Shown here piece by piece: positions 3,085 to 57,842 of a stretch of DNA of 64,000 bases. Numbering within the stretch: the stretch's first letter is position 1; each line of letters begins with the position of its first letter. The notes below the pieces were generated by a model. That model searched no databases. It had not been told where the DNA came from and saw only the letters and a program-made list of their open reading frames with translations. A program made the position numbers and the translations under genes. The DNA is taken from positions 6,138,001 to 6,202,000 of the forward strand of contig CAKKNE010000001.1 of assembly GCA_918797485.1 (NCBI GenBank). The letters run 5' to 3'. Source of the stretch: Pelagomonas calceolata (lineage: Eukaryota).

Positions 3085-6000
3085 TCACCCGTCCGGCGTC
3101 CCCCCCTCGTGCGGCCGCACCTTCGTCGGCGCGATGCGGTTGCAGTCGTCGTTCGACGGCCAGCGGATTTCGTAGAACTTGAGCTTGCCGGCGCCGTCCT
3201 TCACGAGGTCGTCGACGGTGCCGCGGTACCATCGGGCGCCTGCGCGACGCGACCAACTCAAACGCGCCACGACGGACACAACACACAAACAGAGCGCGCG
3301 CGCAACACACACACGCGGGCGAATCACGCTCAGGTCCATGCCGAACAGCGCATCCACATCAGCCCCCACCGCAAAAAAGTCAGCGGCAAAGGCCGAGAGC
3401 CGGCGCTTCGGCGGCTTCGGCGACGCGGCCGGCTTGGGCCGCTTCTTCTTCTTTGACGGCAACAGGTGGCGGCCGTCCTCGTCGGCCGGCCGCACGGAGC
3501 GCGCCGCGCAGGACTCGACGCGGCCGTCGTCCAGGACCACGTCGTAGCCGACCGCCGACGAAGACTTCACGCGCCCGAGCACCCAGACCTCCTCCTTGCG
3601 GCCCTTGCGCTGGCGCACCTCGACGCGCTCGCCGACCTGGAGCGCCGTCGGGAACAGGCCCCCGAACTCGTCGACCATGTCCTCGTCGTCGTCGCGGTCG
3701 TCGAGGACCTCGTCCTCGCCGCCGCCGTCGCGGCGGCGGCGCTGCCGCTTCTGCGCGCTCCAGCACGTGGGCGCGCCCCTCAGGAGCTGGTCCAGGGTCA
3801 GCGTCGCGCTCTTGCCCGCGGCGGGGCCGGTGTCGAAGACGACGGAGTACATCGTGGGCGCCGGCCCCGTCTCGGCCTTCCCATACAACTCGGTCGTGCG
3901 GCGCCGGCTGCGCTGCGGCACGGGGTTCGAGACCGTTGTGATGACGCCGCTGCCCTGGCCCACGACCTCCACTCTATCACCGGGCAGGAACGCGCCGTCG
4001 GTCTTGTCGTGGCCCGGCCGCCGGCTGCGCGGCGACCCGTCGCGGCTGTGGCTCCCGCCGGCGTCGTAGCCGCCGCCGCGCGCCGCCCGCTTCCTGTGTG
4101 GACATCAAACGTCACGCCCCCGTAACCGCGTCGATTGATTCCCACACGGCCCGCCACAGCTTCTTCTCCCACTTCCGCGACGCCTTCCAGGCGACCTGGA
4201 ACTCCGTCTCCCACAAATCTTCTTGAATATCGATGGCGTCGATGCCCTCCGGGGGCTTGTACGTGACCCTCGTGCAGGCCTGGTACGTGCCGTCCTCGGC
4301 CTGCACGCGTCCCACCCCGATGACCACGCCGTCGCACGGCACGTCGTCTCCATTATGTAAAGTGACGTTCGTCCGCACGAGATCGCCGATGCGCTCGCCC
4401 TCCAGCAAAAACGCGCCCTCGTCCTGCGGCGACGGCGTCCACTTCCCACTATCGTCCCGCGTCCAGTTGCCGCCCTCCACTTCCAAGGAAGACGCGTCCC
4501 TCCTCTTAAACGCCTCCCACCTCACAAACGCGTCCCGCGCCGCGCCGAACTCGTCGTCGCCCGCGTAATGATACAAGTCCTGCTGGAAGCCGTTTTCATA
4601 CACAACTCGCACGCACGCGACCTGGTCCTCGTCGTCCTCGTGTATTAGTAATGAACCGACGCCGATGACCTCGCCCTCGAGCACCGTGCCGTCCACGTTG
4701 CGCCAGACCTTCGTCCCGATCAACGGCCCGTCCGTCCTAAAGTCCTCCCTATCTTCCTTGGGCACGACCCACTTCCCCTCCTTTTTCGTCCAGTCGCCCT
4801 CGAACTCGACCGGCGTGTCGAACTTCTTCACCGCCTCGCGATGTAACAGGTCCGCGTCCTTCTTCGCCTTCTTCTCCGCTTCCACGTCCTTCTTCGACCG
4901 CGGGCCGCGGCCGCCCTCGACCTTCACGGCCTCGAGGCGCTTCGTCACGCTGCGGTCCTCGCGCTTCAGCGTCGAGACGGGCGGCCGCGGCACGGACAGC
5001 GCGGGCGGGCCGCCCTCGACCCAGCACGTGCCCTTGAGCTCGTTCGTCGGCGAGAGCTTGTAGAGCTTGAGCTTCTTCTGGAACTCGGCTTTGTTGGTAG
5101 TACAGTGCGCGCAGCCGACGAGCTTGCAGGTGTGCGGCGGCGTCGTGTCCGACAGGTTCGCGAGGATGGCGTCGCGCTCGGCGCCCGGGTCTCCCACATA
5201 TTCGTGGCGGTACGACGGCCTAAGTTTGTCGCGCGTCGTCGGCGCCCAGGTCCCGGCCTTCTGGGCGAGCGAGCGCCCTCTTACGTCCGTCGTCGCCTCA
5301 TCCTTGTCGGCCTTGTGGTTTCTGGCGGACGGGCGCCACCGCGGGCTCCTATCCCGACACTTGCCGAACGTCGGGTGCATCGTGATGGACGTGACTCGTC
5401 TTCCTGTGGACGTCAATTGCGCCGCGACGGTCTCGGCCAGCATCCAGCCCAGCCCGATGCCCTGGAAGTCCGGCAGGATGACGACGCGGTGCTCCCGACT
5501 ACCGCCGCTCGTCCCTTCCCCGGCGCCGGGCATGCCTAGAGCTGTGTTGACACTATGAAAGCCGATGGGCCGGCCGTGCAACCGGAGCTCCCAGCTCCAG
5601 CAGCTCTTGTTGATGTCCTCGGTCAGGTAGTGGTGGCGCTTGAACGAGTCGAAGTGGTAGTACGGGCACCGCTGCAGCTGCAAGTTGACCGAGGGCGCCG
5701 CGAAGAGCTCGTCGAGCCGCGCCACGTCCGTCGTCGCGGGCTCGTCGGTCGCCGCGAGGCGATCCGCGTGTAGTAGTACTAAACAGCCCGTGCGCGTGTC
5801 GCCCGTGTCCTCAAATACGTTGCCCTTCTTGTTCTTCTGCCACCAGCACGTCGTCACGACCGCCGTCATGAAGAGCCAGCGCGGCTTCAGGAAGGCCACG
5901 ACGTCCTCGTGGACTGTGGCGCAGACGACGTGCTGCAGGTTGTGCTGCGCCACGTAGGCAGCGACGCCCGCCGCGACGCGCCGCGCGAGGGGCCGGGCAG

Positions 6001-16318: not shown

Positions 16319-19300
16319 TTAGGACTCCAGCTCCTCGGCCATGGGTTCGGTAGCAAGGAAGTCCGCCGCCGTGACGTCCTTGAGCGCGGCAGAGACGGCC
16401 TCGCGATCCTGCTTCCACCCCGGCCGCGGATCCGTTTTGTTGTTTACCGCGAAACCGATTACGTTGGCCAGGGATCGCCAGGCGTTATTCCGACGATTTT
16501 GAGCAGTTGCACTACTATCAGTACGCAGTTTTTCAATGGCCCTGTCTAGGAAATCGTGCGCGAGTTCTTTGGGGAGCGCCTTCGTCGAGTAGCACGCCAC
16601 AGCGCCCGGGTGCGTGTGCGTGCGCGCGACCATTTTCTGCCACTGCGCCGCGAGCTTTTGCACTGCCTCCCGCGAGGCGTCCGCTATCTTCGCGTCGTCG
16701 TCGCCCTCGTCGTCGGGCGGGCCGACCCCGCGCCGCGCCATGACCCGACGCAGCTCCGTCTCTGTCAGGTCAGCGAGGGCGGCGTCTTCCGCCAGTTCGA
16801 TCACGGCGCCTTCGGCCAGTTCCCGCGGCGTCGGGGCTCCCAGGTGGAGCGGGCGCGCCAAACCATGAGGTATATTCCAGTCGCCCCCCCCCCCTTTTTT
16901 TTTTTTACGTTGGGAGTTCATTTTTCTGTATGCTTCTTCGAAGGTGCAGTAATCAAAGGCCTGGTTCATGAACCGCTCCGCCGTGAGATAATTGCCGGCT
17001 TCTGGGAACGCGGGCGGAACAGTAGCGTTGGTCGCGTCGAGCGCGACGCGCAACATGCGCAGGTGCGGCGTGGCGAAGCAAGGGGCTAGCCAATTCAAAG
17101 CAGCCACGCCACGGGATGTTCCCCAGTCGGCAAACGGATACACGACATGCTGGTAGCCAGTAACGGCGCGGTTGTAGCGCCAGTGCGGCGTTCCGTCGGC
17201 CGCCAACCGGACGCGGTTCAAGCACTCTTTGGAGATGAGGTGCAGCTTATACTCAAATGCGTACAGGTCACGGGGCCCACTCAGTGATGCGAACACGACT
17301 TTTTCTCTATTGAAAATGACAACACCGCGCCGGCCGGCCTGGCCGCTGATGATGTGTCGAGCCACGACGAAGAAGGATTCGGACTTCTCGTAAGCTCTGT
17401 CGCCCATGCGCTTGCGGAGTTTCTCGAAGGCATTTCTACACGTATCTCCAGGCCATACAGAGATGGAGCGATCTAGACCGAAGCGCTTGAGGCGCTCGGT
17501 GAAATTATTCTCGGGCGGGCCCAGCGCCGAAGCGAGGCCGACGTTAGGCTCAATGGCCCAGGACGGCACCGGCAGGACGACCATGTATTCCCAGATCGAC
17601 TCACATGCGCTGTGGTGGCGCAGATCTCCAGTGCACTCGTAGCAGCACACGCTGTCGCCGCGCTTCTCGTAAATCTTGACGCCACTCGCGACCTTGCGCG
17701 GCGAATCCGCAACCAGGTGCTGCTCGCATTCTTTGTCAAAGTAGAGATTTTTAATCGACACCACCCGCGACTCGAACGAGTACCACTCCAGCGCCGTGCT
17801 CACAAAGCCCTGCTCGCCGCACGTGACCTCGGTGCTGCCAAACATACGATCGAGCCAGAAGAGCGCGTCACGCAGATCCATAACATCGACGCCATAATGT
17901 TCTATCGCGAGGAATTGCGCAAACTTAAAACCGGTGATGCACGTGCACCAGCCGACGCTCTCGGCGGTCCCGGAACGTAGCGTGAGCGCAATGCGGACGA
18001 GTTCCTTGGCCGGCCCTTCGGGGAGCGCCCTAAAGCACTTGCGAACGCGCTCATCTATAGAAGGATCGTCGAGCAGCCGATCCCAGATCTCACAATGCAT
18101 GGCGAAGCTGTGCGAGATGCGGGGACCATTATGGGCAAGCTGCGTTTCATCGGGCGCCGAGCCAAAGGCCGTGTTCCACTCGGTCAGGGGCAGCACGTCC
18201 CGCCCCAAGAACGGTATCGTGCACATGTCGACATATGTGCGCAGCGGCCATCCCGGCATGCGCACGCCATCGGGCCGCCACGCAAATGGATCGAACTGTG
18301 TGGACATCAACCAGTGACTCAGGTTACGGACAACGTCGCGTCGATGGCGTGGCCCTCTTTTTTGAACAATAAATAAGGCACTGTCGTCGACGGGCTGGAT
18401 CAGGCTTCTACTTTCAGAATCTTCGTGGACTGGCAGCGGCCACTGACTTAGTTTCACGTTCGCCAGTTTCCGGATTGCGTGTATGAGTTTTCCACCTTCT
18501 TCATTTGGTCTGTGGATGACGGACAGGTTCGCATATCTACGGCGAAAGATCTGCCCGTTGGCAACGAGCTGCCTCATGGCATCCTCTTCTCCAAGTTGTT
18601 CTACCAGGCGTTCTTTTTGTCTGCCCGTATAAGCATCAAAAGCCTCCCACAAAAGAGGCTCGTAGAACACATCTTCGAAAGCTTTGCCGCACGCGACGGC
18701 GATGCGTTGATAATCGGAGTTCATGGATACTTCGTGCCACTTCTTCAACTCTTCAGGGTCCCAGGCAGCGGCCTTGACGACTTTGATGTCTGCTTTCTCG
18801 TCAGGCCACCGGAGGCGGTCCAAAGAATCATGAAACACTAAGCGGACTTCGAGCTCGCTGTCTAGGGCCCCTCGTCGAGTACACCGAAGCACAACAGCGT
18901 CGAACCACTCAGACGGTCGCGTCTTGTCGTTCCCCAGATACGTGTTCACTTTTATCTTTGAATTGACGGCCGGCGGCAGATTCGGGTACTCGTTGCCTTT
19001 CTCTCGTAAAGCTTCATGATCCGGATCAATCAAGGACGCGCGCTCGTGGCCCCAGAGGCTCCGGAGCCTCCGGACCTTTCGATACATCGCGACGTACCAG
19101 GGCTCCGCGGTCTTCTTTGCCGGCATGTGCGGGTGCGTCAGGTACTTGAATATGCGTTTCAATATTTTGTCGTCGAATCGTGTTTCTCCCGCTAATAACG
19201 CGCGGAGGCCTTCGCGCCCGCCTTCTCGCTCCGCAAAGGACAGCCGGTGTCTTCTGAGCCGGTGTCTTCTGTTATTCACGGAGAGCGTCGTCCACACTGA

Positions 19301-20876: not shown

Positions 20877-23800
20877 ATGGCCTTGGCCTCGCCCAAACAA
20901 GCCGGCGAGTTCTGCCTAGCATGCGTAGGCCACGTCGGCGGCACCATCGACAAAAACTACAGAGTAAGAAAGGAAGCGGGCCTCGACGCCTCCACCGCGG
21001 CGGCCGTCGAGGCCGCGGTCGCGCCGGGCGCCGCCTACCGCGCCGCGCGGGACGCCGTCTCCGCGGCGTTGTGCGACGTCGAGTACTACAAAACGGCGGC
21101 GAACGCCGTCAAACGGGCCATCGCGGACGAGGCCAACAACGTCCTCGACGACTACGCGCAGCGCGTCGCGGACGCGGACCGCGCCGTCGACGGGCTCGAC
21201 TTCTCCTTCGAGGGCGCGACGAGATTAAGGCACCTCCTGAGCGACGCGACGCCGACGCTCGAAGCGGTCCGCGACTGCGTCGTCGCTATTACGGCGGCCG
21301 ACGCGCCGCGCGGCGGCCGCCTCGTCGACTTCTGCCGCGACCGGGCGCAGCGGTCCGGCGCGCCGCAAGTCGCGCACGCGCTGCGGCGTCTCACCGCGGC
21401 GGCCGAGAAGGCTGTGTTAAGAGCCTGCTGCGCGTGGTGCGTCCGTGGCGACCTCTGCCGCGACTTCTTCGTGCGCGCGGCGCGCCGGGCCGTGTCCGAG
21501 CCCTGGCCGCCGCTGCGCGCGGAGCACGCGCCGGTCCTGGGGGCGCAGCCGTCGCTCGGGCGCTTCGAGCTCGACGCGAACGCCGTGCCGCGCAGCCTCG
21601 CGTCGAAGCACCTCGCGGAGCGCATCCTGTTCCTGGGCGGCGCGACGCGCGTCCTGCGCGCGGCGGCGACGCGCCGCCGGGACGCCGCGGCGCGCGAGGT
21701 GCGGCGGCGGCGCTTCCTGCAGCGCGCCGTCGCGGAGATCGAGGCCGAGCCGCGCTTCGGCGGACTCGTACAATGCGGCGTCTTTGGAAAAGGTGCCTTC
21801 GTCGCGGCGATGGCGTGAGTAGGGGCGCCCGCCAACTCCTCGCTCGTTTTTGAGGCGTCGACGGCGATGCTCGCAAGACAGATAACCGCACACAGGTCAA
21901 GGCCGCCGACGAGCCCCTCCCGGCGGAAGAGCCGGACGAGGACGCGACGCCGGCCACGCGCGCCTGGCGCGACGTCGTCGCGCTGGCGGCGCCGCCCGTC
22001 GAAAGCGACGGGGCCTGCGGCGCCGAGGCGCGCGACGCGCGGCTCCGCGAGGCGCTGGAAGCTCTCGTCAACGCGCACGCGCGCGTCGCCGCGGAGAAGC
22101 TGAAGCACGTGCTCGTGCGCGACGGGTCGCTGGCCGCGGCCATCGGAACGTTAGGAGGCGTTTGTTTGCTACGGTGCGGGCCCCTCTGGAGCCGGGCGCT
22201 CGACCTCGCGCGGCCGACTTTAGCCCAGGCGCCAGACTCAAAAAGAGGCGCGCTCTGCATCCAGCGGTGTCTAGAATCGGCGGCGCGCGATCTGCTCCCC
22301 GAGGAGGAGGACGAGGAGGAGCGGCTGCGCGCGTGGCGCGCGTTCGAGCGCGCGGGCGGCGCCAAGGGCGCGGGCAAGTCCGACGCCGCGGCCTTCTTCG
22401 AAGCCTTGGGGAAGCGACGTACGGCGCCCACGACTTTAGATGTGGGCGACCGCGTGGGCCACCGCGCGGCGCTCGACGCCGTCGTCGCGGCCCGGGGCGG
22501 CGCCGACCGCACGACAGCTTTAGTGGTGGCCGACCCGGAGCCCTTCCTCTGGTCGCCGGCGGAGGCCGACCTCCGGGCGCGTTTTGGTTTGAGGGGCGCC
22601 GCCGCGCGGTCCGATAATGTGGTCGTGCTCGGAGGCGACGGGGCCGCAGACCAACAAGAGTCGGACGACGAGGCGACGCCGCGGTTCCCGCTAGCTGAAG
22701 CGGCCGCCGTCCCGGCGCTCGAGGCGCTCGAGCCGCGGCGGCTGGCCCAGCGGGCGTGGCGGTTGGAGGCGGTCGCGGCGGGGCGCGGCGGCGACGCGCG
22801 CGTGCGGCTGGCTTTGAGAAGGCCGGGCATGGCCGCGCGGCGGCGGCGGCCCGCCGTCGCCGCGGCGCTCACCGACGGGGGCCTGCTGGAGGTCTCGTTG
22901 GACGGTTCAGTTGTTGCCACGCGGCCCGCTTCGTTGGAAAAAGCGAGATTGGCGCTGCGCAGCGCCCGGGGCGTCGACGGACGCTGGGAGCTTGATGTTT
23001 TTGCCGCCGACGCGGTCACGGACGCCGTCCGGGCGACGGTGAAAGTGGTGGTGGACGTCGGCGGCGTGCTCGGCGGACACCGCGCGGCGATCGCGCTCGA
23101 GCTCGTGGGCGACGCACCAGTTGATGTGGCGCGCTTCTCGCTGGCCTTCGACGACATCGAGGAGGAGGAGACGAGTGCGGCGGCTGTGGTGTTGGGCTCG
23201 TCGTCGCTCTCGAGGCGAGCGGCCCGGGCCGACGCCGAGGCGTCGCGGGCGGCGGACGCCTGGTCGCGGGCGTTGCGGTGCGACGTGGCGCCGCGGTGGC
23301 CCGTTGGGGATCTACTTCCGGGCTCCTCCGCGGGCGAGGACTACCAGGCGGCCTTTGCGCGCATCTTCGCGGCGCGCAAGGCGCTCGCGGACCTCGACGC
23401 GTGCTGGCCGGCGCTTTCATCGGCGGGCCGCGAGTTCTGCGCGTCGCACCGGCGCCGCGACGAGCGCGACGGTTTTGCCGCTTTGATGCGGCTGCAACAT
23501 TTACATTTCCGCTGCTCCGCCCTGTGCCGATGCATCGTGGCCGTCCTACAGCGCGACGGCGTCGAGCCGCTCTGGCGGCGCCTCTGCGAGCGCATCGAGG
23601 AGCCGGGCGACTACGACGCGTTGCGCGACGCCCACCGCGCCTTCCTCTTGGATCTGCGGGACGCCCTGCGTTTGGACGAGGAGGACGTCGGCGCGGCGCT
23701 CGAGGCCGTCTTTCGAGACGCGGCTCGTCTCGCACGGCTCGTGGACGCGTACGCGGCGGCCGCGGACGACCTGCCCGCGTCGACGCTGGACGCGCTGCGG

Positions 23801-24761: not shown

Positions 24762-26321
24762 ATGATGCTCGCGCGTGCATCACTGCGACCGCTGCGCTGC
24801 GCAGCCAAGCGCTCCCTGGCCGTCGACGCCGCGCAGCTAGAGGACACCGCAGCCCAGCTCCTCAAGCGCCACGGCGTGGCAGGCGTGCAGGCCGCAGTGA
24901 TCGATGCCGGAGAAGTCATCCCTGTGAACGGAGGCCTGGCCGACGTCGCAAGCGGGACGCCGGTCGCCTCTACCACGCTCTTCCAGCTCGCGAGCTTATC
25001 AAAGCCGGTCGCGGCGCGCCGCGCGCTCACTCGCTTCGACGCCGACGCGGCCGTAAACCCATTGCTGGCCGCGCACGGCTCGCCCTGGCGCATCGAGGGC
25101 CAGGACGGCTGGGGCGACGCCGTCACCGTCTCCCACTTGATCGACCACTCGGCGCTCGGCCTGCACTACGTGCCGGGCGTCCCGGAAAGCGAACCAAAAC
25201 CTTCGTCGCTCGAGCTGGTCTCGGGCCGGGCGGAAGAGTGGGGCTACGCGGCCGTCGAGTGCGTCAAGAAGCCGGGCTCGGCCTTTGCGTACTCGGGCGG
25301 CGGCTTCCTCGTGCTCCAGCACCTCCTCGAGTGCGCGCTCGGTCCCGAGAAAGCTTTGGCGCCGTGCGGCGGCCGCTTCGGCTACGAGCTGGACGGCGCG
25401 CCGACCGGCGAGAGCCTCGTCGACTTCGGCTTCGACGTGCCGGAAGGACAGACGCACGCGGTCGGTTATCGCGACGGCGGCGAGGTTCTGGGTAGGCTCT
25501 GGTTCCCGCCGTTCGCCGCCGGCGCCATGGGCACGGCGAGCGGGCTGGGCGAGTGGCTCTGCGGGCTATCAAAGGCGCACCGGGACCGCGGCGACGGCAT
25601 GCACGCCGTCGCCAGGTTGATGCTCGAGCGGCGCAGGGATTTGGGGGCCGGCGCCTTCATGGGCGCGCGCATGGGCCGCGGGATTTTTATCAGGGATGTC
25701 GCGTCCGGTGCTGTTCCGCGCGAATATTGAGCTCGACGTTGACGCCATCGACGGCATCGTTCCATGCAGGCGATCCGCGGAGCCCGGACCGGTGGATGCT
25801 CCACCAAGCGGCCAACGACGGGTTTACGGCTGTGTGGAAATCAAAATTTTACGGCGCGTTCGTGCTGAATCATCGCGTCGTCCTCCACGCCATCGACGCG
25901 ACGCCTGCTCGATGGCGTGGCGATGCTGGTTCCTCGCCGCTCGACCGAGCCAGGACGGCCGCGCCATCGCCGAGAAATGACAAGTGAAGAATTTTCGGGT
26001 GCACCCGACACACTTTGATTTTTACACAGGTTTAGGGGATTGTTTCTGGTCTGCTTCGATGGTCCTTCCGCCGCGAACGGTCCCCGCGGCCTCGTCGTCC
26101 TGTCAAATGGCGATAACGACGCCATGCTCTTCAACATGGCCATGGCGCGGGCCATGCTCGAAGCGCTCGAGCCGGCCGGCTTTGACCTGGGCCGCGTCCC
26201 GGACGTCGCCGCGGGCTTCGACACCGCGGGCATGCGCCAGGAGGAGATCGTGAACCTCGGCTTCAAGGGACTCGTCCTGGACGCGTTCGCGGAGGCGCCC
26301 GGGTTCGAGCTCGGGAAGTGA
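24762..26321 (+). CDS. Beta-lactamase-family serine hydrolase, probably mitochondrial; introns 25708-25769 and 25822-26029
   Basis: SxxK motif (ASLSK) and FAYSGGG. Splicing gives ...VASG|DPRSPDRWMLHQAANDG|FRGLFLVCFDG...LVVLSNGDN. Arg/Ala-rich N-terminus. Confidence 0.8.
25830..26029. mobile_element. Introner element (200 bp) forming intron 25822-26029 (+)
   Basis: TIRs CTGTGTGGAAATCAAA / TTTGATTTTTACACAG match 14/16. The 8-bp TSD gtttacgg / gtttaggg matches 7/8. GT comes from the TSD and AG from the TIR; splicing restores the frame. Confidence 0.9.
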
Positions 26322-46440: not shown

Positions 46441-47969
46441 TCAGTAGAGCTGCTCGACGCCCGACCCCTTCGCCTTCGCGTCGGCGCGCCGCTCAGCCCG
46501 CCGGAGCAGCAGGGGGATCGGCACCGCTAGTAGAGCGCACGCCGCGTTCGTCAGGAAGGGCAGCCCGCCCGGGAAGCGGCGGAAGCCGCAGGACGCCGCG
46601 AAGAGCGAGCCCGAGACGACTGGAGTGAAGATGCGCGCCGCGGCGCGCGTCGACCTGTGCGGAAATTTTACGGTGCGTCCTGAATCGCCGCGTCGACCTC
46701 CACGCCATCGACGCGACGCACACTGGTTGATTTCCACACCGGCGTCGACTGGATCAGCGCTAGGTTCTTCGCGCGCGCGTCGGCCGTCGGCGACGTCCTT
46801 GCTACCAATGTGGCTGTGGACGTGTCCGAGATGCCGGCGCCCGCGCGGTTTATCAGGTAAAAGAGCGAGTGGAGCGGCTGCGCTCGCACGATGCTTTGCG
46901 AAGCCATGCCCAGCGACAGCGTGAGCAAGCCGAAGCACGACGTCAGGTGCGGGCCGATGCGCCTGACTAAGGTCGGAAAGAGCACCTGGGCCGCGATCGT
47001 CGTCAGCGCGCCGGCCGAGAACGTCGCTGATAATTGAGGTTGATCATACCCCATAAACTTGGGCGCGAACAACCCGTAGCAGTAGACCGACAGCGTCAGC
47101 GACCAGCCGACGACGAGCGCGATGGACCGGAGCGCGAACTGCGCCGACACGCCGGGCAGGATCCCGGGCGCCGGCTTCGTAGGCGCGACTTGCTTCTGCT
47201 CAACCTTGAGCGCCGGCTCGTCCTGGGACGCGATTGCTTGTGCTTTTGCGGCTGTTGCTTGGAAGGACCTGGCCAGCACGCCCAGCACGCCGGCCGCGAA
47301 GACCGAGGCCGTCAAGAAGACCGCGCGTAATCGAAAAGCCTGGGGCACGCCCGCCGCCGCGAAGGCCGACATGAGCAGGGCGGCGCAGGACGGCCCGACG
47401 ACCACGGCCATCTGCGACGACGCCGCGACGCGCGCGAGGGCCGCGGGCGCTTGCGCCGGCGCCACGAGCTCCGTCGCCGCGGCCTGGGCCACGGGCACGC
47501 TGGCGGCGAAGGCGCCGCACAGGAAGCGGCAGACGACGATCGCCGCGACCGACGGCGACATGGCGATGCCGACGTTGCCCAGCGTCGCGCCGGCCAAACA
47601 GAGGCAGAGCGTCTGGCCGCGGCCGCCCGCGCCGCCCGACCGTCGCACCAGCAACGGGCAGCAGACCATCTGGGCCACGCTAAAGAACGACGTCGCGAGG
47701 GCCACCTCGACGGGCTTCGCGCCGAGGCGCGTCAGGTGCAGCGGCAGCGTCGCAATCGCAATACCCTCGCCGATCATCTGCGCAAACACGCTCAGCGTGA
47801 CCGGCAGCAGCGCACGCGGCAGCGGCGCGTCGGCGTCGGCCTCGATCGCGACGGCCGCGGCCCGCGGCGGCGCGAGCAACTTCGGCGGTTTTGCCAGCGG
47901 GGCGAGGGCTGGGCCTCGGAAGGCGTATGTGCATTTTAATGCTGTTGCGAGGAGTAATAGTAGGCGCAT
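46441..47969 (-). CDS. MFS transporter (TetA/DHA1-like), probably plastid-targeted; intron 46749-46655
   Basis: Signal+F leader; about 12 TM; CRFLCGAFAASVPVAQA and VVGP motifs. Splicing gives LIQ|STRAAARIFTPVVSGSLF. Confidence 0.85.
46655..46741. mobile_element. Introner element (87 bp) forming intron 46749-46655 (-)
   Basis: Perfect 8-bp TSD GCGTCGAC at 46647-46654 and 46742-46749. Ends CTGTGCGGAAAT / ATTTCCACACCG. The interior aligns with the 25830 element. Confidence 0.9.
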
Positions 47970-54921: not shown

Positions 54922-57842
54922 ATGGGCAAAGGCGGCGCCCTACGAGCAGGCCTCAACGGCCGCTTTAATGTGGGAGGCCGCGTCTCCGTCTTCCAAATAC
55001 TGTCGAGAGGCAGCGCTGCTCGGCGCGTTGTAGCCGTCGGCGTCTTGTTGCTCACGCTGGACGTTATCCTGAGTGCAGCGGCGCAGTGGCTGGCGGCCGG
55101 CCGACGCATTCATTTCTCGTACAGCCTGCGCCACGACGCCAGCGATATAGTCGGCCTGGCGCTCTTACGCGTGCTGGTGCTGCCCACGTTGGCCACTGTC
55201 GCGCACCGATCGTGGCACGCGGTCTCGCGCTACTCGGCGCGCGAGGATGGCTACGAACGTCTAAATGATGACAATGAGCTCGGCTTACGCAAGGCGAAGG
55301 CGGACTTAAGGCGAGATCTGTGGCTGGGGTTCTTGTTCGTGGTGGCGTCGGTGTGCCAGGGCTACGTCGGCGTCAAGCTGTGCGTCTACGATCTGGAGGA
55401 CGTCCCACAGGAGCGACGAGCGGCATGTGTCAGCGTGTATTCGTGCCTTCGACTGCTCGACGGCGTGACTCTCCCCCACGCCATCGCCGCGACTCACAAA
55501 ATGCAAAACACAGGCCTTCGCCGTCTGCGTCGGCCTCACGACTCTACTCATAAATGCGGAGGCGTGGCTCCTCAGCAACCTCGTCCAGTCGCAGACGCGG
55601 GTGCTGGCGGCGCTGCGACCCTCGCTGCACGCGCACGCGCTCGAGCTCAGTCAGACGACGTCGAACTGGTGTGACATCTGTGGGATTCGTATCACGACGC
55701 CGACGCTGTGGCGCTGCCATCCATGCAACTTCGACGTCTGCCCGAAGTGCTGGGAGGCGCGCGACGAGACCACGGCGTCGCCGCTCCACCAAGACGGCGC
55801 GCAGAACGGGCGCGGCCGGGGCCGCGGACGCGGAGGCGGCGGCCGGGGCCGTGGCCGTGGCCGGGGCCGGGGCCGCGGCGGCGGGCGTCCGAGCCCGGCG
55901 CAGCAGGCCGAGGTCGAGATTACGAACTGGGACATCGTGCGCGAGGCGGCGAAGCTCATGCGTCCCTCCTGGTGGCTCGTGGCAACGGCGCTGGCCTGCG
56001 TTGTCGCGTCGGGCGTCGCGAGCCTGGCGCTGCCGTCGTACCAGGGCAAGATCATCGACGCCGTCTACGCTCGAGATCGGAGCCGCTTCCGCAAGATGCT
56101 CGAGCTCTACCTCGTCTTCTCGGTGGGCACGGCGGCGACGCAGGCCCTGCGGGCGCTCTGCTTCCAGGTCGTCGGCCGGCGCCTCGCGTGCGCGCTGCGG
56201 AACGAGCTGTATGCCGCCATCTTGAGGGCGGAGATCAGCTACTTCGACTCGACGGCGAGCGGCACGCTCACGAGCCGCCTGACGCAGGACGTCCGCCGCG
56301 GCGTCGAATTTCTGCTCGACGGCGTGGGCGTCGACCCGGTCGATGGCCACACAGGTCAATCAGATGACATTTCCTTTGACGACATTGCTCGGGTCGCTCG
56401 TCGCTGCGGTTATCTCGCTCATCGGCGGCGTCGCGATGGCGTTCTACACGTCGTGGCGCCTCTCCATGCTCGCCTTCACGACGGTGGGACCGATCGTGCA
56501 CGTGACCCAGGCTTATGCCCAGTGGTCCAGAGATCAGAATCGACGGATCCTAGCCCATCTCGGTGAGGCAAATGCCGCGGCCACTGAGGCGTTAGCGAAC
56601 GTGCGTACCGTGAAAGCGATGGCTACTGAAGATCGCGAGGCGAAGCGCTATGCCGACCACACGATGGCCGCGCGAGACCGCGGTATTATCGACGCCTGCC
56701 TGAACGCGCTGACGTCTATCCTCACGAATATTCTCGATTACGGCTCGGGCTGGCTGATTCTCTTCTACGGGGGCGCGGAGGCCATGAGAAAAGGCTCTGG
56801 CCTCTCGGCGGGCGAGCTCGTCACCTACCAGCTCTACTTTAACAAGATCCAGTCGTCCTACAACCAGCTCGTGAATTTGCTCTCGTCATTTACACGTGCG
56901 GGCGGTGCCGCGCAGCGTGTCTTGGGCCTTTTGAAGGCCATGCCGTCGACGGACGCGGGCGGTGACGCTCCACAGGGCGGCGGTCGCGGCGCGGCTTTAG
57001 CCTACGACGACGTGCACTTCACCTACGCGTCGCGGCCCGACGCCCCCGTGCTCAAGGGTCTGAGCCTCGACATTCCGGCGGGGTCGACGCTCGCCTTAGT
57101 TGGCCGCTCCGGCGCGGGCAAGACGACGGCGCTCAACCTCCTGCTGCGGTTCTACGACCCGAGCCGCGGCCAGATCACGATCGACGGCGTGCCTTTACCG
57201 CAGCTCGACGTGCGCTTGCTGCGACGACAATTTGGTGTTGTCGCGCAGGACACGGAATTATTTGATACGACGATTTCCGATAATATAGCGTACGGCGCAG
57301 CGGCGGGCGTGGGCGACGGGGAGGTGCGCGAGGCCGCCGAGGCGGCTTTGGCTCACGAGTTCGTTCAGGCCTTTCCTAGAGGTTACGACACGCGGGTCGG
57401 AGAACGCGGCGTCCGGATTTCCGGCGGACAGAAGCAAAGGATATCGATAGCTCGCGCGTTCCTGAGAGATCCGCGAGTGCTCTTATTAGATGAGGCTACG
57501 AGCGCATTAGATGCGGAGAGCGAGAGCAAGGTCCAGGCCTCGCTCGACGCGCTCGTGGCGCGCGCGTCGGCGACGGTCGTGCTCGTGGCCCATCGGCTCT
57601 CCACCGTCCGCAATGCGGACTGCATTGCAGTCCTCGGCGAGGCCGGCGTCGTGACCGAGCGCGGGACGCACGATGAACTCGTGGCGAGGGACGGCGTTTA
57701 TGCAGCGCTCGTGCGAAGGCAGCTCCAGACGTCCGCGAATCAAATCACCGAGGCCCAGGTCGACGCCGCGGCGCAGGAGGTCGAAGTCGAGGCCGCCATT
57801 GATGAGCTCACGCCGGTCAGGGCCTCGACGCCCCCGAAGTAG
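54922..57842 (+). CDS. ABCB half-transporter (TAP/ABCB9-like) with extra N-terminal TMD, zinc finger and RG repeat; introns 55423-55513 (GC-AG) and 56291-56354
   Basis: Both introns restore the frame (ERRA|AFAVCV; RLTQD|VNQM). Motifs YFD...SGTLTSRL, GRSGAGKTT, ISGGQKQR, LLLDEATSALD and AHRLST. Confidence 0.88.

What the first reader, a model, noticed from the sequence alone, without database searches (positions are those of the whole stretch)
25822..26037. Complete 200-bp introner with TIR and 8-bp TSD creating a scarless intron
Seen: TSD gtttacgg - TIR CTGTGTGGAAATCAAA ... TTTGATTTTTACACAG - TSD gtttaggg. Splicing from the GT of the first TSD to the AG of the TIR removes the element plus one TSD copy and restores ANDG|FRG. 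Knowledge: introner elements of the pelagophyte Aureococcus are non-autonomous DNA transposons that co-opt a splice site from the TSD. Inference: this is recent intron gain by transposition.
Basis: partly seen in the sequence, partly recalled or inferred. Interest (0 to 1): 0.7.

Follow-up and report, generated by a model that had tools for sequence, protein, structure and literature searches.

The report
Transposon-made intron in an ocean alga
A 200-base repeated DNA element sits inside an algal gene and is cut out of the RNA exactly as an intron, while close wild relatives lack it; it likely arrived as a jumping element, a clean example of an already described way of gaining introns.

Summary
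Confirmed, and a known kind. The element (25830-26029, 200 bp) has 16-bp terminal inverted repeats (14/16) and an 8-bp target duplication (7/8). RNA reads splice 25822-26029 (GT..AG; 36 reads, 26 starts), removing the element plus one duplicate and restoring a motif conserved in homologues. DNA runs show a high-copy family. None of 23 readable metagenome loci holds the element; two close genomic relatives carry the single empty target already starting with GT, so the donor is co-opted. A second copy, opposite in orientation to its gene, is also spliced. A wild relative appears to carry the family at another site of this gene. Corrections: the host is not Aureococcus anophagefferens (likely Pelagomonas), this copy has already decayed somewhat, and no transposase was found. 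The geometry matches a published P. calceolata family (202 bp, hAT, 'co-opt 5′ carry 3′'); sequence identity to it is untested. The scan noted the same mechanism in other genomes.

The parts
25822..25829 (+). First copy of the 8-bp target duplication; now intronic; supplies the GT donor; one change against the exonic copy
   Evidence: the empty alleles L056 and L057 carry the second-copy version once
25830..25845 (+). Left terminal inverted repeat (16 bp); its reverse complement also ends in CAG
25830..26029 (+). 200-bp non-coding TIR element (introner/MITE), 57.5% GC, member of a high-copy family
26014..26029 (+). Right terminal inverted repeat; supplies the CAG acceptor; two mismatches to the left TIR that the consensus of other copies lacks
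   Evidence: loose-end consensus at 26014
26030..26037 (+). Second copy of the target duplication, kept in the mRNA; same as the ancestral empty site
25822..26029 (+). The spliced intron, 208 nt, phase 2, GT..AG
   Evidence: 36 junction reads, 26 starts
24762..26321 (+). Host gene: three exons (24762-25707, 25770-25821, 26030-26321), 429 aa, Pfam PF00144 serine beta-lactamase-like family; start codon inferred
25708..25769 (+). Upstream 62-nt GT..AG intron of the same gene; not a TIR/TSD element
   Evidence: 27 reads
25331..25338 (+). Empty GT-starting 8-mer in the window; a wild relative (P0005, P0102) reads into a family copy right after it
   Evidence: protein-level only
46647..46749 (-). 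Second family member: 87-bp internally deleted copy (46655-46741), perfect 8-bp duplication, spliced from a minus-strand MFS transporter gene as a 95-nt intron using the left TIR as acceptor
   Evidence: (14+13+7 reads)
4086..4157 (-). Third, more decayed member: 56 bp (4094-4149), TIR 12/16, duplication 6/8; removing 4094-4157 opens a minus-strand frame; splicing not tested

Best explanation
This is a spliced intron made of a 200-bp repeated element plus one copy of an 8-bp duplication, likely created when a non-autonomous DNA transposon (an introner) was pasted into the exon by a transposase encoded elsewhere. SHOWN: both ends of the element read CTGTG inward, so either end offers CAG as acceptor; the donor GT is the first two bases of the duplicated target and existed before the insertion; splicing from that GT to the distal CAG removes the element and exactly one duplicate, so the message is unchanged. 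Keeping the intron shifts the frame and stops the protein after residue 387 instead of 429. SHOWN on a second copy: the opposite orientation works too. INFERRED: cut-and-paste insertion with an 8-nt staggered cut, most likely by a hAT-type enzyme; survival in exons is favoured where the target starts with GT (or ends in AC on the other strand); the insertion post-dates the split from alleles or sister lineages 92-95% identical in exon 1, yet is old enough to carry several changes.
For: Junction reads, only one GT..AG register. Spliced motif HQAANDG|FRG: all 19 homologues of the 87 aligned that carry the HQ[AG]AN motif have Arg at the TSD-encoded position, none Thr. Summed contig depth inside the element is about 4,000 times the flanks in all 3 DNA runs, and 45-47 contigs per run start exactly at 25830 with unrelated flanks whose consensus last 8 bases read GT-nnnn-AC (the tool warns that depth is no copy number). 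448 and 1,223 predicted proteins contain the element's read-through peptide; 86 different upstream 8-mers among 104 scorable of 223 fetched. 0 of 23 readable loci filled; 6 of 6 close relatives empty; L057 (retains intron 1) and L056 (runs into a downstream gene) have the single target GTTTAGGG. Second copy spliced on the minus strand. A published family has the same geometry.
Against: No transposase domain in 45 long ORFs scanned of 123 listed in the window, nor among the Pfam labels shown for the 120 best of 1,223 longer read-through proteins; the genome was not available. The TSD is imperfect and the copy differs from the family majority, so it is not a fresh insertion. Metagenome assemblies break in this repeat (as X1-X3 do), which biases against recovering filled alleles. 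All 3 DNA runs of the organism are filled, so no empty allele is shown in the same culture or strain set. Intron retention was not measured because reads from other copies pile up on the element.
Confidence: 0.93

Rival explanations
1. The element spreads through RNA (reverse splicing of an excised intron, then reverse transcription), as proposed for fungal and some Micromonas introners; the duplication would be incidental.
For: It is a spliced intron inside genes and no transposase was found. The RNA route is described in PMC9860276 (passages) and PMC3879977 (passages).
Against: The mobile unit is bounded by TIRs and excludes the donor: other copies begin at 25830, eight bases inside the intron. 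The duplication is locus-specific (two different 8-mers at two spliced copies). The two spliced copies lie in opposite orientation to their genes, which reverse splicing would not give.
Confidence: 0.02
2. The intron is old and was lost precisely in the relatives; or an older intron sat here and the element landed in it.
For: Intron loss seems to occur in this gene: L056 lacks the upstream intron that five other relatives keep. The copy has decayed.
Against: The intron is fully accounted for by TSD1 plus element, with no extra base. All 17 more distant loci where the site was readable are empty too. Four of 6 close relatives have CTTCCGCG there, with no GT. L057 keeps intron 1 but lacks this one 52 nt downstream.
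Confidence: 0.04
3. The empty loci are transcripts or paralogues rather than genomic orthologues, so absence is not shown.
For: The collection mixes record types; exon identities are only 82-96%.
Against: L054, L057, L058, L068 and L073 retain intron 1; L055, L056, L057, L068 and L073 continue into DNA that matches the window's neighbouring genes or spacers.
Confidence: 0.03

Closest known systems
Pelagomonas calceolata introner family 2 (Gozashti et al. 2025, PMC12130899, supplementary file sd07, rows seen)
   Same: Listed with 340 copies, 202 bp, 13-bp TIR, class TIR DNA/hAT (RepBase hit hATv-2N1_EHux), GT 281 / GC 42 donors, 'co-opt 5′ carry 3′'. This element is 200 bp (other copies appear 2-3 bp longer) with the same geometry.
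   Different: The rows seen give no sequence and no TSD length for family 2, so identity is untested. Families 3 and 39 (203 bp, 4 copies each) and family 1 (83 copies) are also candidates. I saw 10 of 11 Pelagomonas rows.
P. calceolata putative introner elements (Guerin et al. 2022, PMC9481584; passages and Supplementary Note 3)
   Same: 956 putative elements, intron length peak near 210 bp, GT/GC donors, AG acceptor, conserved TIR.
   Different: The passages seen give no TSD analysis (0 hits for 'tsd' in 5 files searched; one file and the figures unreadable) and no empty alleles.
Aureococcus anophagefferens introner elements (Huff, Zilberman and Roy 2016)
   Same: Non-autonomous DNA transposons that co-opt a splice site and insert in both orientations, as summarised in PMC10228655 (passage) and PMC9860276 (passages). 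The 8-bp TSD and carried 3′ site are recalled; the paper is not held.
   Different: Different host species; sequence relation not tested. An Aureococcus MAG family in PMC9860276 Fig. 2F also has an 8-bp TSD but adds 12 nt to the mRNA, whereas this one adds none.
Micromonas introner presence/absence polymorphisms (PMC3879977 passages; PMC4540971 abstract)
   Same: Metagenomes show filled and empty alleles, and new insertion sites, of introner families.
   Different: Green alga; those families were described as sense-only in transcribed regions.

Membership tests
TIR-type introner | Intron sequence repeated at many unrelated loci | tested here: met
   further copies in the window
TIR-type introner | Terminal inverted repeats | tested here: met
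   14/16 here; other copies' right end matches the left TIR fully over 15 bp
TIR-type introner | Locus-specific target site duplication | tested here: met
   7/8 here, 8/8 at 46655, 6/8 at 4094; single copy in empty alleles
TIR-type introner | Precise spliceosome-type removal from the mRNA | tested here: met
TIR-type introner | One splice site carried, the other co-opted from host sequence | tested here: met
   AG in the TIR; GT present in empty alleles L056, L057
TIR-type introner | Works in both orientations | tested here: met
   one copy each way; n = 2
TIR-type introner | Non-autonomous (no transposase inside) | tested here: met
   200 bp; six-frame translation gives at most 66 codons
TIR-type introner | Insertion into nucleosome linkers | not testable with these tools
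   needs nucleosome maps
hAT superfamily MITE | 8-bp TSD and short TIRs (hallmark recalled, not from a call) | tested here: met
   P and Mutator-like elements can give similar lengths (recalled)
hAT superfamily MITE | Cognate hAT transposase element with the same ends | tested here: inconclusive
   none in 45 of 123 window ORFs or in labels; genome not held
P. calceolata introner family 2 | About 202 bp, TIR, co-opts 5′ and carries 3′ site | tested here: met
   description
P. calceolata introner family 2 | Sequence identity to the family consensus | not testable with these tools
   no consensus in the rows seen
P. calceolata introner family 2 | Host is P. calceolata | tested here: inconclusive
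   organism name is coded; inferred from GC content, intron length, open-ocean relatives
A. anophagefferens introner families | Host is A. anophagefferens | tested here: not met
   named A. anophagefferens homologues of the host protein are 47-53% identical

The most novel reading that the evidence does not exclude
The family is still segregating in wild populations of one recombining, very abundant ocean alga: the same gene exists with the introner at this site, with it at another site about 490 bp upstream, and with neither, and synonymous changes that create a GT decide which alleles can accept a scarless insertion. Ocean metagenomes would then give allele frequencies of intron gain as it happens.
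Probability: 0.45. Interest if true: 0.55.

Novelty: already known. Interest (0 to 1): 0.3.

Why it matters
The mechanism (intron gain by TIR transposons that co-opt a donor from the target duplication) is published, and a family of this size and geometry is catalogued for the likely host. The value here is a fully documented single case: junction reads, the ancestral empty allele with the pre-existing GT, a second copy spliced in the opposite orientation, and a probable reciprocal insertion in the same gene. If the wild alleles are conspecific, the fate of new introns (drift, selection, splicing cost) could be measured from existing ocean data.

Tried and rejected
Genome-wide BLAST was not possible: no genome is held; copy number rests on read and contig depth, which the tool says is no copy number. 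Viral carriage: 53 loci matched a 15-nt TIR motif and 7 matched a 19-nt internal motif in viral contigs, but none extended beyond 23 nt; treated as chance. Prokaryote genomes: 0 matches to the 25-nt left end. Transposase: none found; only 45 of 123 long ORFs were scanned. A wild filled allele at this same site: none among 25 loci (23 readable; L055 ends before the site, L069 lacked the left anchor) or among the fetched proteins. Upstream intron 25708-25769 as an introner copy: rejected, no TIR/TSD, though it shares a short GC-rich motif. Huff et al. 2016 could not be read. Earlier scan notes by sequence and by place: nothing. Literature searches for a report of Pelagomonas intron polymorphism (and 6, 11, 18, 27) listed none, but only listings were seen for most papers, and files 13-14 of the PMC12130899 supplement, the cut part of the PMC9860276 table and bioRxiv supplements were not searched.

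Full report
Observation. The sequence is as described: an 8-mer at 25822-25829, a 200-bp element at 25830-26029 with 16-bp inverted ends matching at 14 positions, and a second 8-mer at 26030-26037 that matches the first at 7 of 8. Only 2 sites in the window reach this level, the other a low-complexity GC run, and 60 block shuffles gave none. At a looser threshold chance hits are common, so the pattern alone would not settle it.

Splicing. Raw poly(A) reads of run X21 (about 6% of the run read) show a 208-nt skip in 36 reads from 26 starts, all on one library strand, and a second 62-nt intron at 25708-25769 in 27 reads. Microhomology allows 7 registers; only 25822-26029 is GT..AG. The message keeps the second duplicate. 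The spliced gene gives 429 aa without stops; with the element kept, the frame shifts and stops after residue 387. The protein belongs to Pfam PF00144. The junction falls in HQAANDG|FRG; all 19 of the 87 homologues that carry the HQ[AG]AN motif have Arg at the position coded by the duplicate, so the exonic copy is ancestral and the intronic copy has changed. 17 lesser joints were not shown by the tool, and retention was not measured.

Family. In all 3 DNA runs the summed depth inside the element is about 4,000 times that of the flanks, and 45-47 contigs per run begin exactly at 25830 with unrelated sequence before it; the consensus of the last 8 bases reads GT-nnnn-AC. The tool warns that this depth is no copy number. 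The element's chance read-through peptide is in 448 short and 1,223 longer predicted proteins, behind 86 different 8-residue contexts among 104 scorable of the 223 fetched. The window holds at least two more members with both ends, at 46655 and 4094, and a one-ended relic at 18296. The copy at 46655-46741 has a perfect 8-bp duplication, lies opposite to its gene (an MFS transporter) and is spliced on the minus strand as a 95-nt intron in 14, 13 and 7 reads of three runs of one sample. So either TIR can act as acceptor.

Empty alleles. A scan of metagenome contigs gave 25 loci. The site was readable in 23, and none holds the element; L055 ends before it and L069 lacked the anchor. Six are close relatives (exon 1 identity 92-95%). 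L056 and L057 have the single target GTTTAGGG; L054, L058, L068 and L073 have the synonymous CTTCCGCG, which has no GT. Five retain the upstream intron and L056 runs into a downstream gene, so they are genomic. The donor therefore existed in the exon before the insertion. Caveat: assemblies break in this repeat, which hides filled alleles, and all 3 DNA runs of the organism itself are filled. A reciprocal case: proteins P0005 and P0102 (93% identical to the host over the part matched) read from residue 192 straight into a family copy, right after an 8-mer that starts with GT and is empty in the window at 25331-25338; this is protein-level evidence only. Identities to the window are patchy along the gene (L056 95% in exon 1, 90% in exon 3; L073 92% and 96%), which may mean recombining alleles; I did not test this.

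Age. The copy differs from the majority of other copies at 5 or more listed positions (25872, 25927, 25964, 25982, 25994; 42 rows not shown), has two changes in the right TIR, and one in the duplication. It is young relative to the gene, not brand new; a distinct subfamily could explain part of this.

Mechanism. Shown: carried AG, co-opted GT, exact removal, both orientations. Inferred: cut-and-paste by a transposase acting from elsewhere with an 8-nt staggered cut; enrichment of GT-starting or AC-ending targets by selection or by target preference, which I cannot separate. No transposase was found in 45 of 123 long window ORFs or in the labels; no extended copy in viral contigs or prokaryote genomes.

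Comparison. The host is not A. anophagefferens (homologues 47-53%); P. calceolata is inferred, not shown. For that species PMC9481584 reports 956 putative introner elements and an intron peak near 210 bp (passages and Supplementary Note 3), and PMC12130899 lists family 2 with 340 copies, 202 bp, TIR, hAT, 'co-opt 5′ carry 3′' (supplementary rows). PMC9860276 describes this recruitment mode (passages; table rows). Presence/absence polymorphism is known in Micromonas. Huff et al. 2016 was not held and is cited from a secondary passage and recall. My searches listed no report of such polymorphism in Pelagomonas, with the limits given under Tried and rejected. Earlier scan notes describe the same mechanism in dinoflagellates and Euglena (not checked).

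Verdict. Real, spliced, and explained by a published mechanism, very likely a copy of a catalogued family. Interest 0.3; the wild filled/empty pattern is the part worth following.

Noticed in passing
window 25708-25769; L054, L056, L057, L058, L068, L073: The upstream intron varies in length among relatives (62, 64, 80, 80, 80, 126 nt, the last by an internal duplication) and is absent, together with one codon, in L056. Full-length 428-429 aa relatives on 3.2-4.0 kb contigs (P0004, P0088, P0094, P0096) may also lack it.
   Followed up: partly
window 25740-25756, 21800-21817, 55472-55493, 18334-18352: Short intron-like stretches share the element's internal motif (CACGCCATCG-CG type); they may be old relics of the family or a recurrent intron motif.
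   Followed up: no
window 18296-18352: One-ended relic: TIR-like end that would give a minus-strand CAG acceptor plus the internal motif; no partner TIR found.
   Followed up: partly
window 4094-4157: Decayed 56-bp member whose removal from GT to AG opens a minus-strand reading frame; not tested with reads.
   Followed up: partly
element 25840-26010: Poly(A) RNA covers the element about 100 times deeper than the host exons, on both strands; it comes from other copies (UTRs, retained introns or antisense).
   Followed up: no
P0233, P0283: Read-through peptides show two family copies close together, one pair in opposite orientation.
   Followed up: no
L056 800-1270; L057 800-1500: Downstream of the gene, wild relatives differ structurally: L056 joins 26383 to about 27655 of the window, lacking most of the C-type lectin part; L057 diverges after 26611.
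   Followed up: no
window 24762-26321: The host gene is a CubicO/class C beta-lactamase-like peptidase with eukaryotic homologues at 40-50% and bacterial ones at 27-39%; origin not examined.
   Followed up: no
protein collections: More than a thousand predicted 'hypothetical proteins' contain the element's chance translation; it is an annotation artefact, not a domain.
   Followed up: yes
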